The notes under the pieces were generated by a model. The model was given only the letters and a program-made list of their open reading frames with translations, searched no databases and was not told the origin of the DNA. Shown here piece by piece: positions 771-64,000 of a stretch of 64,000 nt of DNA; position 1 is the first letter of the stretch; every line of letters begins with the position of its first letter. Origin of the DNA: Malacoraja senta (lineage: Eukaryota); the NCBI GenBank assembly GCA_038087875.1, contig CM075993.1, positions 2,234,001 to 2,298,000 of the forward strand. The letters run 5' to 3'. Both the position numbers and the translations under genes were made by a program.

Positions 771-2817
771 CTGGTTCTGGTGACCAAGCACTCAAGAACT
801 GACTACTCCCAGGAATTGCCTTGGAGTTTACTTTTTGAATCGTGCTCACTCAGCTGATACTATCCTTTGAGAAATGTAGCAAGGGAACAATCAGTTCTTT
901 CACCAACTTAAAAGTCGGCTCCTGTTTAGGCAATCAACATCACTTCTGGCTGCTCAGAGAGCTGCAGCGCAGGAAACAGGAGAGGAAATTGAATTAAAGT
1001 GGCCAAAGGTTTCACATGACTGCAACTGTTTACAAGCAGCACAACGTAAATATTTGATTTATGGTAGAGAACCAAGTAGTTCACAAACAAGAAAATGGAT
1101 CAAGAGTTCAGTTTAAAGACCACAGGAAATATTAGACGACGAATTTGCACGCAGAGATACCAGTTCCTTCAAATGTTTATTGAAGATTTAATCTTTTGTG
1201 CTTCCAGGAGTTAACGAGTTAACGGCTTTCAGCAACCTAATCATGTTATATTATCTGTCCATACCTGCCATGTTTTAGATATTTTGTGCAGTGCACTGCC
1301 TTTCCAAAGAAGTTAAATGTTCCAATCTGTAAGACAAAAATACCAAGTTATAACATACAGATCCCAATTCAGATTTCTAGTTGAATTATAATAATTACAT
1401 AAGATCACAAATCATTGCATTATAAAGTACAATTAATTATGATTTAAATGAATACCCCAACATGAATTTCACAACTGACTGCTCCAAATCACTGCCAAAA
1501 TATGGAGGTCTTTAGTTATGTTTATAATGTGCACACTGGCACCTAATCTAATCAAGGTCACAACTTTGCATGCAACAGAAAGTCAGGTGCCACACTCAGC
1601 GGATCTTTCGACATCATAAAAATCTATAAAGGACAAGGCAGGGAGTCTAACTCAGAACCTTTGCTCCACATATCAGCTACAGAAATCTTGAGTGCGCCAA
1701 CATTTGACTCCAGATTTCCTTAAAAAGCACCAGCAAGAGCCGATACACAAGCAAAATCACAACACATTTTACTTCATGGAAGATGCTGCATATGGTGAAA
1801 TAAAAAGGAACTGCAGATGCTAGTTTATAATCAAAGAAAGACACAAAGTGCTGGAGCAAGTCACCGGGTCTGCAGCATCTCTGGAGAACATGGATATGTG
1901 ACGCTTCAGGTCTGACCCTTCTTCAGACTACTTCTTAACATAGAACAGTATAGCACAGGAACAGACCCTTTGGTCCAGGATGTTTGTGTCGAACATAACT
2001 AACTGAACTGACGTCATCTGCCTGCAAGTGATTCATATCCCTCCGTTCCCTGCAAATCCACAAGCCCAGCCTGAAGAAAGGCCTTGATCTGAAACGTTAC
2101 CCATTCCTTCCCCCCAGAGATGCTGCCTGTCCCGCTGAGTTACTCCAGCTTTTTGTGTCCATCTTCAGTTTAAACCAGCATCTGCAGTTCCTTCCTTCAT
2201 CTAAAAGCTTCTTAAATGCCAATATCATATCTGCTTCCACAACCACCCCAGGTAATGAATATACATGCAGTACACATTATAATATACAGATGTATAATTT
2301 ATCTGCAGAGATGATATTTTGTTAATTTCCCATCAATTCCAATGTGGATAAATAGGATTAGTGTGCATGGACATAAAAGGTTGGTATGGATGAGGTGGGG
2401 AGAAGGCCCCATTCCTACACTGTATGACCGACTTGTTCTTGCAGGAAATAATACGCGAGTCTACTGATATTCAAGGAAAATTTTGACTAACATTACATAA
2501 ATAACAGCACAGACCTGTTGTGCCAAATGGCTCACTTCCTCATTTCTGTGCTTTACATTCCATTAACAAATAAACATGCTTTAAATTCCAATAATACAGC
2601 ATGCACGGGAACAGGACATTGGTTGTTCTAGACCCGGTTTTCTGGACAATTGGATGTTAATCTTATTAAGACCACAGCACAGTTTTAAATGCACTTTTCT
2701 GAATATTGCACGGTTATGATAAACTTCCCTGTGAAACTGGCAAGTTTATTGTGCTGGAATCACTGGTCCAGAAGCGAACAAGGCAAACGATACCCGGCAA
2801 GTAGGATGCCAAAACCG

Positions 2818-3348
2818 TTTAGTTTAATTTAGAGATACAGCATGGAAACAGGTCCTTCAGTCCACGGGTCCGTGCCGAGCAGCGAACCCCGCACATTAAC
2901 ACTACCCTACACACACTAGGGACAATTTACATTTATACCAAGCCAATTAACCTACAAACCTGTATGTACGTCTTTGGAATGAAACCGGAGATCGCATAGA
3001 AAACCCACGCAGGCCGGGGGGGGGAGGGAAGGGACAGGGAGACGTACAAACTCCGCACAGGCAACCACAGTCAGGATCAATCCCGGGTCTCTGGCGCTGT
3101 AAAGGGCCTGTCCCACTTTCACGACCTAACTCACGACCTTTTTCACTCGTGGACATTTTTCATCATGCTAGAAAAACGGCCCGACCTACTTGATGCCACG
3201 AGTACCTACGACTAGCATCACGACCTCCAACGACCTTGTGACGACCATGCTGCGAGTACGAGTCAAGGGCAAACTCAGCAGAGGTCGTGAATTAGGTTGT
3301 GAAAGTGGGACAGGCCATTTAGGCAGCAACTCTACCACTGCATCACCT
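2818..3348 (-). mobile_element. HE1-like SINE interrupted by MITE
   Basis: Reverse complement of the same SINE consensus. Confidence 0.8.
3103..3318. mobile_element. PIF/Harbinger-type MITE inserted in a SINE
   Basis: TIRs agggcctgtcccactttcac / gtgaaagtgggacaggccat; flanked by TAA/TTA; removing it restores the SINE ggcgctgtaaggcagcaac. Confidence 0.8.
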
Positions 3349-5204
3349 GAAGAGGTTGGATAGTGGATTATTGACGTTTTGTGGTATTCAGCACAAATCT
3401 GTCAGCATTGTCTTCCATTAAGGCAAGAACCCTGACCTCACTCGCCCACCTGGTCCCTATTTCACTCCCTCTATTCCATCCTTACAACCCATCCCTCCAG
3501 CCTTCTTTCCTATTTGTGAGAAACAAATGCAGCCCTAATCCTAATCATCGCAAGGCCTCTTTAAATGCTGCTGTTACTTTGCTTCTGAATTAAGATGGCT
3601 GGTTCTGCTAACATCCCCGTTTGATTTTTAATGAGACACATAACAACGCTAATAATTATCCCATAAAATACAATTAACCCAGTTATGTTTAATTCCTGCT
3701 TGTTTGGGGACAATTAGAAGTATTGGCTGGCCAGAGCAACTTTGTGCCGATGTGTCACAATTAACATAACATGATTATCCTATTTAGCAGATTATATGGG
3801 CTTTGTAAAAACACCCAGACTGTGGCTTCTGTTGAATACTGTCCTTGAAAATATTTTACAGATTTGAAACAGGCTGCTAAATATTTGGCGATTATTTTTT
3901 TTAAATCGATGAGCACAAACAGAATAAAGCTGTGTTGTGGATATTTACCCCTGTAGTACAACAGAGCATTATTTCCTTTGGTTAATACTGCCAATCTCAG
4001 TTACAGGCATGCATTTATAAACATGTAAACATAGAAAAAAAAGGTGCAGGAACAGGCCATTCGGCCCCGAGTCAGCTCCGCCATTCAGTATGATCATCTA
4101 AAATCAGTACCCCGTTCCTGCTTTGTCTGGTACAATGGAGCATTGTACCAGACAAAGAATGGCAAGAAAATAGATAAATTAAGAAAGTCACAAAACGTAC
4201 CAAACAAATGGATGGATTAAAGCGCCATCTTTTGGGCAGCAATGGGTCAAGAATCAATTTTACCTGGAGTCGATCATGCAACAGGCGCGCATGAAATGAT
4301 ATTGTTATCTTGACATCTTTGACCTCCCTACCACTGAAATTGGAGCTCCAAAGTGAAAGGAAGGACACGAAAGGAAGGACACCAAATCAATTCTCATAAA
4401 AAGCAAAGCATCATGCTAACATCACCAAACAAATTCAATTTAAAGGGTCTCAATTCTAAGTTCTATGTTAGCCAATCTATACACTATCAAGTCGTACAGC
4501 ATAGAAATTGGCCCATCGGCCAAATTCATCAATTGCCCCATCTAAATTTGTCCCATTTGTCCAAATTTAGCCCAGATCACTCTTAGCCTTTCCTATCCAT
4601 GTACCAGTCTAAATGAATTAAATGTTGAGTAGGGAGCAACTAGATGCTGGTTTAAACCAAAGACAGACACAAAATTGTGCCTGTAAATGTCATTGTGCCC
4701 GCCTCAAACACTTCCTCTTGCAGGTCGTTCCCTATACCCACCTCCTTGTGTGAACCACCAGGCAGTGGTCACAATATTTGTCCAAGTATTGTATGCAACC
4801 TTTAATCAGCGAGTCTCACTGAAACCCCTTGCCTCACTGATCAGCTCACAGTCACTGTTGAGACCTCACTCGCCACAACCAGGCCTCAATAAGGCTGCTA
4901 ATCCCACATTGGAGTCTACACACAATTGCATTATCCCACATCCCTCACATATCTTTCCTCACCTCCACTGCAAACTTGTATGGCTACAATGTGGATAAAT
5001 CATTTAACATTTGATTTTTAAAATTTTGCACACAGCTTAGCAAACATGTGGCATTTTGAAACTTTGGTGCCCGTCAGGAAATGTACAGCTTTGGACGTAT
5101 CATTGCTTTCACAGTAGGAACAATAATGCAATTGGAATGGTTCTTACAAAAGGTGGTAGGAAGGGAGAAATGGGTGCACATCTAGGTGGGGCACAGGGAA
5201 AACT

Positions 5205-63271: not shown

Positions 63272-63365
63272 CTGAGTAGTTGGGAGAACTCTTCCTTCGA
63301 CATGGATCCACTGCCATCAAGGTCGTACATTTTAAACATGAGCTTAGATTTGTCTTCTGGAGAAC
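63272..63365 (-). CDS. DUOX: Dual oxidase exon (first in window), EF-hand 2: (G)[30 protein letters not shown](R)
   Basis: 94-bp exon between ttccgcag acceptor and gtaatt donor; canonical EF-hand loop [12 protein letters not shown]; recognisably similar to vertebrate DUOX GSPEDKSRLMF..YDLD. Confidence 0.95.
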
Positions 63366-64000
63366 CTGCGGAAGGAAATTGGGATAGTTTTCAATTAGTA
63401 TGTGTTGGAAATAGTAATCAGCTTGTACAACAGGAAGACAATCTACAGTGTAAGAAAGAACTGCAGATGCTGGTTTAAACCGAAGATGGACATGAAAAAG
63501 TTGGAGTAACTCAGCAAGAAGGGTCACGCCCCGAAACTTCACCCATTCCTTCTCTCCTGAGATGCTGCCTGTCCCGCGGAGTTACTCCAGCTTTTTGGGA
63601 CAATCTAGTGATGGCTTTACGCCTTGCTGGGTGATTGAAAGTGCTTGCTTGTTGGAACAACATGGAGGGAGAACTATATATTTGGCCACCCATGCCTGAA
63701 GATGAGTCGCGACCTGAAACGTCACCCACTCCTTCTCTCCAGAGATGCTGCCTGTCCCGCTGAGTTACTCCAGCACGTTGGGTCTATCTTTGGTGTAAAC
63801 CAGCATCTGCAGTTCCTTCTTACACAAAGATTCTCACCAGCCATTTGGCAGTACTAAAGTAGCTTTTCTCACATGAACATACATTTGTTTGTTTAGTAAG
63901 GTTTGGTATTTGATTATTTGATTAGTAAGGGTCTCGGGTTATGGGGAGAAGGTAGGGGAATGGGGTTGAGAGGGAGAGATAGATCAGCCATGATTGGATG

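What the first reader, a model, noticed from the sequence alone, without database searches (positions are those of the whole stretch)
1800..63830. Abundant Penelope-derived repeat carries a minimal hammerhead ribozyme core, usually in head-to-head palindromes
Seen: the most common non-SINE repeat contains CTGAAGA-N-[stem II, e.g. GGGTC-tc-GACCC]-GAAA-C-GT(C/T/A). Intact cores are at 2072-2099(+), 9212-9241(-), 23804-23833(-), 28481-28508(+), 50571-50600(-) and 63696-63723(+), and more than a dozen decayed copies occur. Established: CUGANGA/GAAA/NUH is the hammerhead catalytic core, and Penelope-like elements carry minimal type-I hammerheads with almost no helix III that are thought to act as dimers. 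Inference: this is a non-autonomous, retrozyme-like family seeding potential self-cleaving motifs every few kb. The inverted arrangement puts a motif on both strands and would give long dsRNA hairpins.
Basis: partly seen in the sequence, partly recalled or inferred. Interest (0 to 1): 0.75.

Follow-up and report, generated by a model that had tools for sequence, protein, structure and literature searches.

The report
Penelope retrotransposon tails with minimal hammerheads
This abundant repeat in a ray or skate genome is the truncated end of a Penelope-like jumping gene, carrying the minimal self-cutting RNA motif already published for such elements; most copies are decayed and likely inert, so it is ordinary apart from one oddity: many copies stop at the motif's front edge.

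Summary
The repeat and the hammerhead core are real: 9 strict cores against 0.4 expected, and 44 non-duplicated pieces of a 136-nt family. It is the 5'-truncated 3' end (pLTR plus 'tail') of a GIY-YIG Penelope-like element (PLE), probably Neptune-type, in a batoid genome. One copy still joins the endonuclease C-terminus through a 203-nt UTR. Two 3' ends about 35 nt apart, AT-rich flanks, 9-12 nt target duplications and inverted 5'-truncated arms are all published PLE signatures. The motif matches the minimal hammerhead consensus of Cervera and de la Peña 2014. Three first-reader claims fail. Stem II is 4 bp plus a tetraloop. Palindromes are 11 of 30 insertions and hold only 2 of 8 intact cores, predicted to be buried in hairpins. 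It is not a retrozyme: there are no tandem arrays and no canonical ribozyme. Catalytic G12 decays at the CpG rate, and only 3 of 8 cores keep every helix. Cleavage was not testable. One unexplained point: 26 of 44 pieces end at the 5' edge of the hammerhead and none at the cut site, with a similar pile-up in distant relatives. New member of a known kind.

The parts
29775..30118 (-). Key copy: last 20 codons of a PLE GIY-YIG ORF (30118-30059), stop codon, 203-nt pyrimidine-rich 3' UTR, then the repeat body with the 5' half of the hammerhead deleted
   Evidence: (18 aa, 78% to P0139 C-terminus, E 1.2e-4)
53931..54113 (-). Second PLE ORF end (GIY-YIG C-terminal motif within a 39-aa stop-to-stop stretch) plus start of the same 3' UTR; no hammerhead attached
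   Evidence: 91% nt to 30116-30023; 66% to P0157, E 2e-8
50474..50603 (-). Best solo copy: complete minimal hammerhead (core 50600-50573; 3-bp stem I, 4-bp stem II, ACGU helix III, GUC), body and tail; 12-nt target duplication; sense strand in a DUOX intron, about 50 nt before the acceptor at 50425
28474..28572 (+). Solo copy without tail, 10-nt target duplication, core 28481-28508 with shifted stem II
51802..51935 (-). Solo copy closest to consensus, with full tail; helix III palindrome broken; the stretch laid with contigs
63694..63826 (+). Solo copy with tail; core 63696-63723; stems I and II damaged
2067..2198 (+). Solo copy, core 2071-2098 (GUU triplet, no stem I); faces an older copy of another subfamily at 1801-1930(-) across 136 nt of other DNA, so probably two insertions
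23781..23837 (-). Short piece with core 23806-23834 (1-nt insertion in stem II, no stem I)
9195..9392 (.). Tail-out palindrome; intact core on the minus arm (9241-9214), broken core on the plus arm; duplicated at 12986-13182
25457..25525 (.). Short tail-out composite; core 25499-25472 with AUAU helix III; joined at TCAG/CTGA microhomology
6722..6937 (.). Tail-out palindrome joined at stem II; tail on one arm only; cores broken
8422..8746 (.). Tail-out composite with about 100 nt of UTR between the arms; duplicated at 12212-12536
23392..23682 (.). Young inverted composite with 34-46 nt internal re-starts, 10-nt target duplication, no CUGA
57569..57847 (.). Forward-inverted-forward composite with a 12-nt target duplication (read by eye), no CUGA
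62422..62993 (.). Two tail-out composites; the second is centred on stem II and followed by a direct partial tandem with 60 nt of UTR
63445..63600 (.). Tail-out composite under one 9-nt target duplication, i.e. a single insertion
56413..57243 (.). Two further palindromic composites (56413-56516 without core; 57083-57243 old, core broken)
45691..45996 (-). Direct partial tandem of two copies, both cores broken
49519..49850 (-). Copy with about 200 nt of 3' UTR, 3-nt deletion in the core
57861..58135 (+). Copy with about 200 nt of 3' UTR and an internal deletion through the core
40899..63366 (-). Host context: C-terminal exons of a dual oxidase (DUOX2-like) gene; the gene starts beyond the window

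Best explanation
The repeat is the 5'-truncated 3' end (pseudo-LTR and tail) of an endonuclease-bearing Penelope-like retrotransposon, likely Neptune-type, and its minimal hammerhead likely worked only in the parent element's RNA, as a protein-assisted dimer, while the scattered copies are likely inert debris. Shown here: the anatomy ORF end, UTR, hammerhead, about 65-nt body, optional 35-nt tail; target duplications; AT-rich flanks; inverted arms; CpG decay of G12. Inferred from the Anolis PLE (PMC11167929): the element's protein binds its RNA, nicks AT-rich DNA and starts reverse transcription at either of two sites about 65 and 100 nt downstream of the cut site, which gives the two 3' ends. 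The cDNA runs through the cut site, so the template was uncut or re-joined, and usually stops early. Fold-back or joining of two cDNAs at self-complementary spots (stem II, TCAG/CTGA) would give the tail-out palindromes under one target duplication. In the parent RNA two cores would pair through the ACGU palindrome and a 2-3 bp stem I and cut each other after GUC.
For: PLE link: GIY-YIG C-terminal codons lie 203 nt upstream of a body copy. The sister fragment's 39-aa peptide gave 44 hits; six looked up are all named ray or skate proteins. P0157 has RT motifs, a CxxC linker and YIGET, and matches at 66%, E 2e-8. 3' ends in the window: 15 of 44 at positions 94-107, 19 at 127 or beyond, 10 elsewhere. 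In contigs of run X2, loose ends pile at 51802 (924) and 51837/8 (848), 35-36 nt apart, with A/T-rich low-agreement flanks; the 51802 end recurs in three other runs and 51837/8 in one. Target duplications of 9 nt or more in 4 of 22 intervals against 14 of 3000 random pairs, plus one read by eye. A full tail is on one arm only in 7 of 11 composites and clearly on both in none (manual). The same picture (inverted pLTR, palindromic junction, 9-10 bp TSD, 31-bp tail on one arm) is in PMC3846280 (passages). The motif fits the published consensus CUGANGAH-G..C-GAAAN-palindrome-NUH (PMC4209133 supplement). Distant animal-like contigs with the same core show stem I covariation (pairs 1-3 formed in 49, 47 and 49 of 58), GIY-YIG ORFs 40-90 nt upstream at 2 loci, and two 3' ends (36 and 31 of 77). 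Inert copies: G12 is mutated in 7 of 33 against 11 of 72 at flank CpG, p=0.58; private non-CpG changes are 4/241 in core and 48/1789 in flank, p=0.51. Sense copies are not depleted in DUOX introns (7 against 5).
Against: No full-length element, and no PLE RT Pfam hit among the 74 of 160 ORFs scanned or by tblastn with five PLE-derived proteins. The ORF-linked copy has lost half its core. GIY-YIG Pfam scores of the batoid relatives are under the curated cut-off; only 1 of 3 relative ORFs passes it. Counting all changes, non-CpG core sites vary less than flank (9/241 against 159/1789, p=0.004; A2 subfamily only, p=0.025). I read this as selection in the source elements plus alignment-edge bias, but it could reflect selection on copies; my private-change filter is aggressive. 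Stem II shows only a one-sided change between subfamilies (U-A to U-G), not true covariation. The 5'-end pile-up is not predicted by random truncation. The Neptune assignment rests on a linker motif in relatives; no tree was built.
Confidence: 0.82

Rival explanations
1. A short, defined non-autonomous element (SINE-like, about 100-135 nt, starting at the 5' edge of the hammerhead) split off from the PLE and was amplified in trans from its own master copies.
For: 26 of 44 pieces start at consensus positions 2-16. Two TSD-bounded solo copies start at positions 0 and 4. Very high abundance: 88,007 of 18.6 million contig records of run X2 align to one 161-nt stretch (this is not a copy number).
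Against: 7 of 44 pieces carry 50-265 nt of UTR and one reaches the ORF. Starts spread over about 25 nt rather than one base. All three subfamilies show the pattern, which would need three masters. Contig ends at 51935 continue with a purine-rich, UTR-like consensus.
Confidence: 0.09
2. One reading: a retrozyme-like family that self-cleaves and circularises, propagating through small circular RNAs.
For: Two direct partial tandems in the window (62705/62881, 45691/45873) and a few tandem joints in contigs (51934 to 51845: 6 contigs in X2, 2 in X18). A 2026 preprint reports retrozymes in its one chondrichthyan and derives retrozymes from PLE pLTRs.
Against: No array of three or more units. All four cores in the two tandems are broken. 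The ribozyme is minimal, not canonical. 0 of 44 pieces start at the cut site. In that preprint 8 of 9 tested dimers did not cleave.
Confidence: 0.04
3. Dispersed copies are co-opted: intronic cores cut host pre-mRNA in trans or as long-range dimers, or the palindromes give regulatory dsRNA.
For: A perfect core lies sense in a DUOX intron. Palindromic loci fold at -44 to -174 kcal/mol. Non-CpG core sites vary less than flank. Runs guessed to be RNA hold thousands of contigs with the repeat.
Against: G12 decays at the CpG rate. The dimer fold is 5-34 kcal/mol above two monomer folds. No strand bias in introns (small n). Published minimal hammerheads are inactive as monomers and weak as dimers, and the Anolis one needs its protein.
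Confidence: 0.05

Closest known systems
Minimal type-I hammerheads (min-HHR) in pLTRs of metazoan Penelope-like elements (Cervera and de la Peña 2014, PMC4209133; parts 1-2 of 4 and supplement part 2 read)
   Same: Identical consensus: extra base after A9, G10.1-C11.1, palindromic 15.2-16.2, short helix I, U-rich upstream; thousands of dispersed single motifs from truncated PLEs, some in opposite-strand pairs.
   Different: No cartilaginous fish in the alignment part I read or in a term search of two supplementary files (one file not searchable). Helix I is only 2-3 bp and helix II 4 bp, at the short end of their range.
Endonuclease-bearing PLEs of the Neptune/Nematis type (Craig et al. 2021, PMC8557442, passages; Arkhipova et al. 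2013, PMC3846280, passages)
   Same: C-terminal GIY-YIG, CxxC linker (in relative P0157), 5' truncation, partial tandems, inverted 5'-truncated arm, 30-40 bp tail on one end, 8-10 bp TSDs, palindromic junctions.
   Different: Only the ORF end and pLTR are in the window. Short copies dominate, and their 5' ends crowd at the hammerhead edge.
Poseidon element of Anolis carolinensis, PAc (Frangieh et al. 2024, PMC11167929, parts 1-2 of 4 read)
   Same: Two 3' ends defining a tail, AC-rich end, AT-rich targets, cut site about 90-100 nt upstream of the end, uncut RNA used as template.
   Different: Probably a different clade; nothing here is tested biochemically.
Non-LTR retrozymes of animals (Cervera and de la Peña 2020, PMC7229834, passages; Li et al. 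2026 preprint 10.64898/2026.07.22.740005, parts 1 and 3 of 5 plus passages)
   Same: Non-coding, type-I hammerhead, PLE pLTR ancestry.
   Different: Retrozymes are tandem arrays with a ribozyme in each unit and give circular RNAs. This family is dispersed, truncated and inverted.

Membership tests
Minimal type-I hammerhead of PLEs | CUGANGA-H, stem II opened by G-C, GAAAN, NUH | tested here: met
   consensus of all three subfamilies; 8 of 20 core-spanning pieces keep all 11 invariant bases
Minimal type-I hammerhead of PLEs | No helix III loop; palindromic ACGU-type 15.1-16.1 segment for dimer pairing | tested here: met
   7 of 8 cores palindromic (ACGU or AUAU)
Minimal type-I hammerhead of PLEs | Short helix I closing the motif | tested here: met
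   2-3 bp in 5 of 8 cores, 0 in 3; published range includes 2 bp
Minimal type-I hammerhead of PLEs | Self-cleavage as a dimer | not testable with these tools
   only contigs available; predicted dimer fold unfavourable
EN+ Penelope-like element | C-terminal GIY-YIG endonuclease upstream of the pLTR | tested here: met
   last 20-36 codons only
EN+ Penelope-like element | Telomerase-like RT in the same ORF | tested here: inconclusive
   absent from the window; RT motifs present in relative P0157
EN+ Penelope-like element | Optional 30-40 nt tail giving two 3' ends | tested here: met
   35-36 nt
EN+ Penelope-like element | 5' truncation, partial tandems, inverted 5'-truncated arm, short TSD | tested here: met
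Neptune clade | CX2-5CxxC linker between RT and EN; placement on an RT tree | tested here: inconclusive
   linker in relatives P0157, P0149, P0139; no tree, no RT in the window
Non-LTR retrozyme | Head-to-tail tandem array, each unit with a complete ribozyme | tested here: not met
   two partial tandems, all four cores broken
Non-LTR retrozyme | Canonical type-I hammerhead (about 6-bp helix I, loop-loop contacts) | tested here: not met
   the 2026 preprint also admits minimal motifs
Non-LTR retrozyme | Abundant unit-length circular RNA | not testable with these tools
   no raw RNA reads offered

The most novel reading that the evidence does not exclude
The 5' edge of the hammerhead is a built-in stop for PLE reverse transcription. 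Either the RNA starts or is spliced there (all 5 UTR-bearing copies whose junction survives have a pyrimidine tract and YAG one base before CUGA, as with the Drosophila virilis intron), so initiation in the 5' pLTR gives short run-off 'strong-stop' cDNAs; or the ribozyme fold or bound protein halts the enzyme. This would explain how one autonomous PLE fills a genome with 100-135 nt SINE-like units, and would give the PLE hammerhead a role other than cutting. Support: 26 of 44 window pieces end at positions 2-16 and none at the cut site. In distant relatives 32 of 71 end within 46 nt upstream of the core and only 2 between 47 and 100 nt.
Probability: 0.3. Interest if true: 0.55.

Novelty: new member of a known kind. 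Interest (0 to 1): 0.27.

Why it matters
As it stands it extends a known pairing (PLE plus minimal hammerhead) to rays and skates. There it covers 6.9% of this window and offers a very large natural record of insertion products. What the hammerhead does in PLEs is still open (PMC8557442, PMC11167929). The 5'-end pile-up at the ribozyme edge and the absence of ends at the cut site are a cheap, genome-scale test of that question. The claim of active ribozymes spread every few kb is not supported.

Tried and rejected
Rfam scan at E up to 1 gave no hammerhead family; all 24 hits are below gathering score and mostly miRNA models matching the palindromes. No whole genome is held, so genome-wide statistics come only from contig tallies. 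The exact 30-nt batoid motif had 0 hits in viral contigs, and a degenerate version 0 in metagenomes. A looser core pattern gave 122 loci (121 read) that share only the core and anatomy; they were selected on the core and their relatedness is not controlled. No RNA holder is on record. The three runs guessed to be RNA are contigs: some end at 51902-51904 next to the cut site, but contigs cannot show RNA ends and a hypervariable CpG lies there, so I rejected this as evidence. Depth and variant shares over the core are distorted by mismatches in the copy used, so they were not used for conservation. A spliced upstream exon was looked for and not found: solo copies share no non-UTR upstream sequence. 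The 44-nt 'shared upstream' of copies 47036 and 44170 is a duplicated DUOX exon end, not part of the element. The top two hits of the peptide search (P0121, P0122) are repeat artefacts. A hammerhead-like string in the 161-bp tandem at 23833-24220 lacks A9 and is not kept between units. Literature: 'hammerhead ribozyme' + skate + shark gave 0 papers; Penelope + elasmobranch + repeat gave 8, listings only, none on this; the search on truncation or splicing at the hammerhead listed 7 papers, and the parts I read of five of them do not report the pile-up. Lünse et al. on dimer cleavage is known to me only through a review's passages (PMC6765202). Repbase/Dfam were not available and probably hold a consensus for this family. 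The 2026 preprint's supplements (which chondrichthyan, which families) could not be seen and may bear on novelty. Earlier-findings look-ups by sequence and by eight words were empty.
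Full report
Observation. The strict pattern CUGANGA-N8-20-GAAANNUH occurs 9 times against 0.40 expected, all inside one repeat. A profile built from 20 copies gives a 136-nt consensus and 50 hits. After dropping 2 weak hits and 4 in a 3.3-kb block duplicated at 99.5% around an N gap, 44 pieces remain, in 25 clusters and three subfamilies. 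The family covers 4,387 bp, 6.9% of the window. Rfam has no model that catches it.

Host. Exons of a dual oxidase gene run from 63,366 to 40,899 on the minus strand. The best named matches are a stingray and a sawfish at 89%, so the host is a ray or skate. Copies beyond 41 kb are intronic.

The motif. Consensus: CUGAAGA, an unpaired A, a 4-bp stem II with a tetraloop, GAAA-C-GUC. This is the minimal hammerhead consensus of Cervera and de la Peña 2014 (text), whose ACGU palindrome lets two molecules build helix III. Stem I is 2-3 bp. Of 20 pieces spanning the core, 8 keep the 11 invariant bases, and 3 of these keep all helices. No copy is predicted to fold as a hammerhead monomer; in most, the purine-rich core pairs with the downstream pyrimidine tract. 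The dimer fold is 5-34 kcal/mol above two monomer folds. Nearest-neighbour energies ignore the core's tertiary contacts, and the relatives are also unfavourable (median +8.7), so this is weak evidence. It agrees with published inactivity of monomers, low dimer activity and protein dependence in the Anolis element.

It is a PLE end. Copy 29853(-) is preceded by a 203-nt pyrimidine-rich UTR and the last 20 codons of an ORF; a sister fragment lies at 54113-53997. That 39-aa peptide gave 44 hits among 1.84 billion proteins. Six looked up are named ray and skate proteins, mostly host gene models with PLE pieces read in. P0157 shows RT motifs, a CxxC linker and YIGET and matches the peptide at 66%, E 2e-8. 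The GIY-YIG Pfam scores are below cut-off. The linker points to Neptune or Nematis; no tree was built. No PLE RT is in the window: Pfam on 74 of 160 ORFs found RT and endonuclease domains only in the long 25.8-36.4 kb repeats, which I take for LINEs, plus an RNase H and DUOX domains.

Insertion signatures. 3' ends fall in two groups: 15 of 44 at positions 94-107 and 19 at 127 or beyond. In run X2, 88,007 of 18.6 million contig records align to one copy, and loose ends pile at two places 35-36 nt apart with A/T-rich flanks. This is the PLE tail, which in Anolis marks two internal start sites of reverse transcription at AT-rich nicks. Target duplications of 9-12 nt bound 4 of 22 intervals tested, against 14 of 3000 random pairs. 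One more (57569-57847) was read by eye. Three of these five enclose a whole inverted composite, so the palindromes arose in single events. Junctions sit on self-complementary spots, stem II itself or TCAG/CTGA. The same architecture was described for rotifer PLEs and read as self-priming.

Palindromes. By manual grouping, 11 of 30 insertion units (24 of 44 pieces) are inverted composites. But they contain only 2 of 8 intact cores, several have lost CUGAAGA altogether, and an antisense arm cannot serve as dimer partner.

Selection. G12, a catalytically essential base (established knowledge), sits in a CpG. It is mutated in 7 of 33 copies, like flank CpGs (11 of 72, p=0.58). Private non-CpG changes do not differ between core and flank (4/241 against 48/1789, p=0.51). 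Counting all changes, the core varies less (9/241 against 159/1789, p=0.004). The simplest reading is selection in the source elements and neutral decay after insertion, but the test is small and the last result is against me. Sense and antisense solo copies in DUOX introns are 7 and 5.

Relatives. A loose core pattern fetched 122 metagenome loci with animal-type neighbouring genes. Among 58 distinct contexts the first three stem I pairs form in 49, 47 and 49, with C-G/U-A and A-U/C-G exchanges; mean stem length is 2.76 against 1.56 for shuffled partners, with 0 of 2000 shuffles reaching it (relatedness not controlled). GIY-YIG ORFs end 40-90 nt upstream at 2 loci. These families also have two 3' ends and palindromes. 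So the motif is a structured RNA tied to PLEs across animals.

The oddity. 5' ends: 26 of 44 at positions 2-16, 2 at 17-34, 9 at 38-84, 7 extending into the UTR, and none at 33-37 around the cut site. Arms of one palindrome are not independent, and diverged UTR may be missed; contigs at that place partly continue into UTR-like sequence. Still, relatives show 32 of 71 ends within 46 nt upstream of the core and only 2 in the next 54 nt. All 5 UTR-bearing copies with a surviving junction have a pyrimidine tract and YAG one base before CUGA, echoing the D. virilis intron that ends at helix I (promoter and intron positions in PMC2377424, passages). I found no spliced copy. A run-off or arrest point at the ribozyme edge is the novel reading, at probability about 0.3; I did not find it in the searches.

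Verdict. It works like, and is, a PLE pLTR with a minimal hammerhead; it fails the retrozyme tests. My searches found no report for cartilaginous fish, but the association is published across animals and 358 earlier findings of this scan mention both words. New member of a known kind; interest 0.27.

Noticed in passing
window:7811-11071 and 11601-14871: 3.3-kb direct duplicate at 99.5% identity around a 200-N gap, followed by an 8.5-kb (AC)n run (14872-23390); probably an assembly artefact at a microsatellite.
   Followed up: partly
window:44176-44219(-) versus 47037-47080(-): 44 nt of a DUOX exon end and splice donor, with the attached repeat copy, recur about 2.9 kb downstream at 84% identity: an old local duplication.
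   Followed up: partly
window:50425-50530(-): The ATG-led frame in the body and tail of the 50600 copy runs open into the next DUOX exon in frame, and the tail holds an acceptor-like site 61 nt before the true one. Possible alternative start or exonisation.
   Followed up: no
window:23833-24290: About three copies of a 161-bp GC-rich tandem unit lie directly upstream of the core at 23834(-); part matches 10998-11050. Origin unknown.
   Followed up: partly
window:25853-27320 and 30378-31845: Two LINE-like RT fragments of 1,468 nt at 95% identity in inverted orientation 3 kb apart; a 673-aa RT ORF at 31872-33893(-) and endonuclease fragments at 34.2-36.4 kb.
   Followed up: no
window:37769-38860(+): 363-aa open frame with an RNase H domain (E 1e-13), not repeated in the window.
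   Followed up: no
window:23477-23560 and 57727-57799: The youngest subfamily shows 34-46 nt internal re-starts of the stem II region at its 5' junctions, suggesting repeated template jumps there.
   Followed up: partly
P0123-P0164: Many ray and skate gene models end or begin with the PLE endonuclease C-terminus (for example a neuromedin-U receptor model), either mis-annotation or frequent exon capture.
   Followed up: no
window:5647-5706(+): A further decayed fragment resembling the PLE ORF end, about 200 nt downstream of a tail fragment at 5393-5448.
   Followed up: partly
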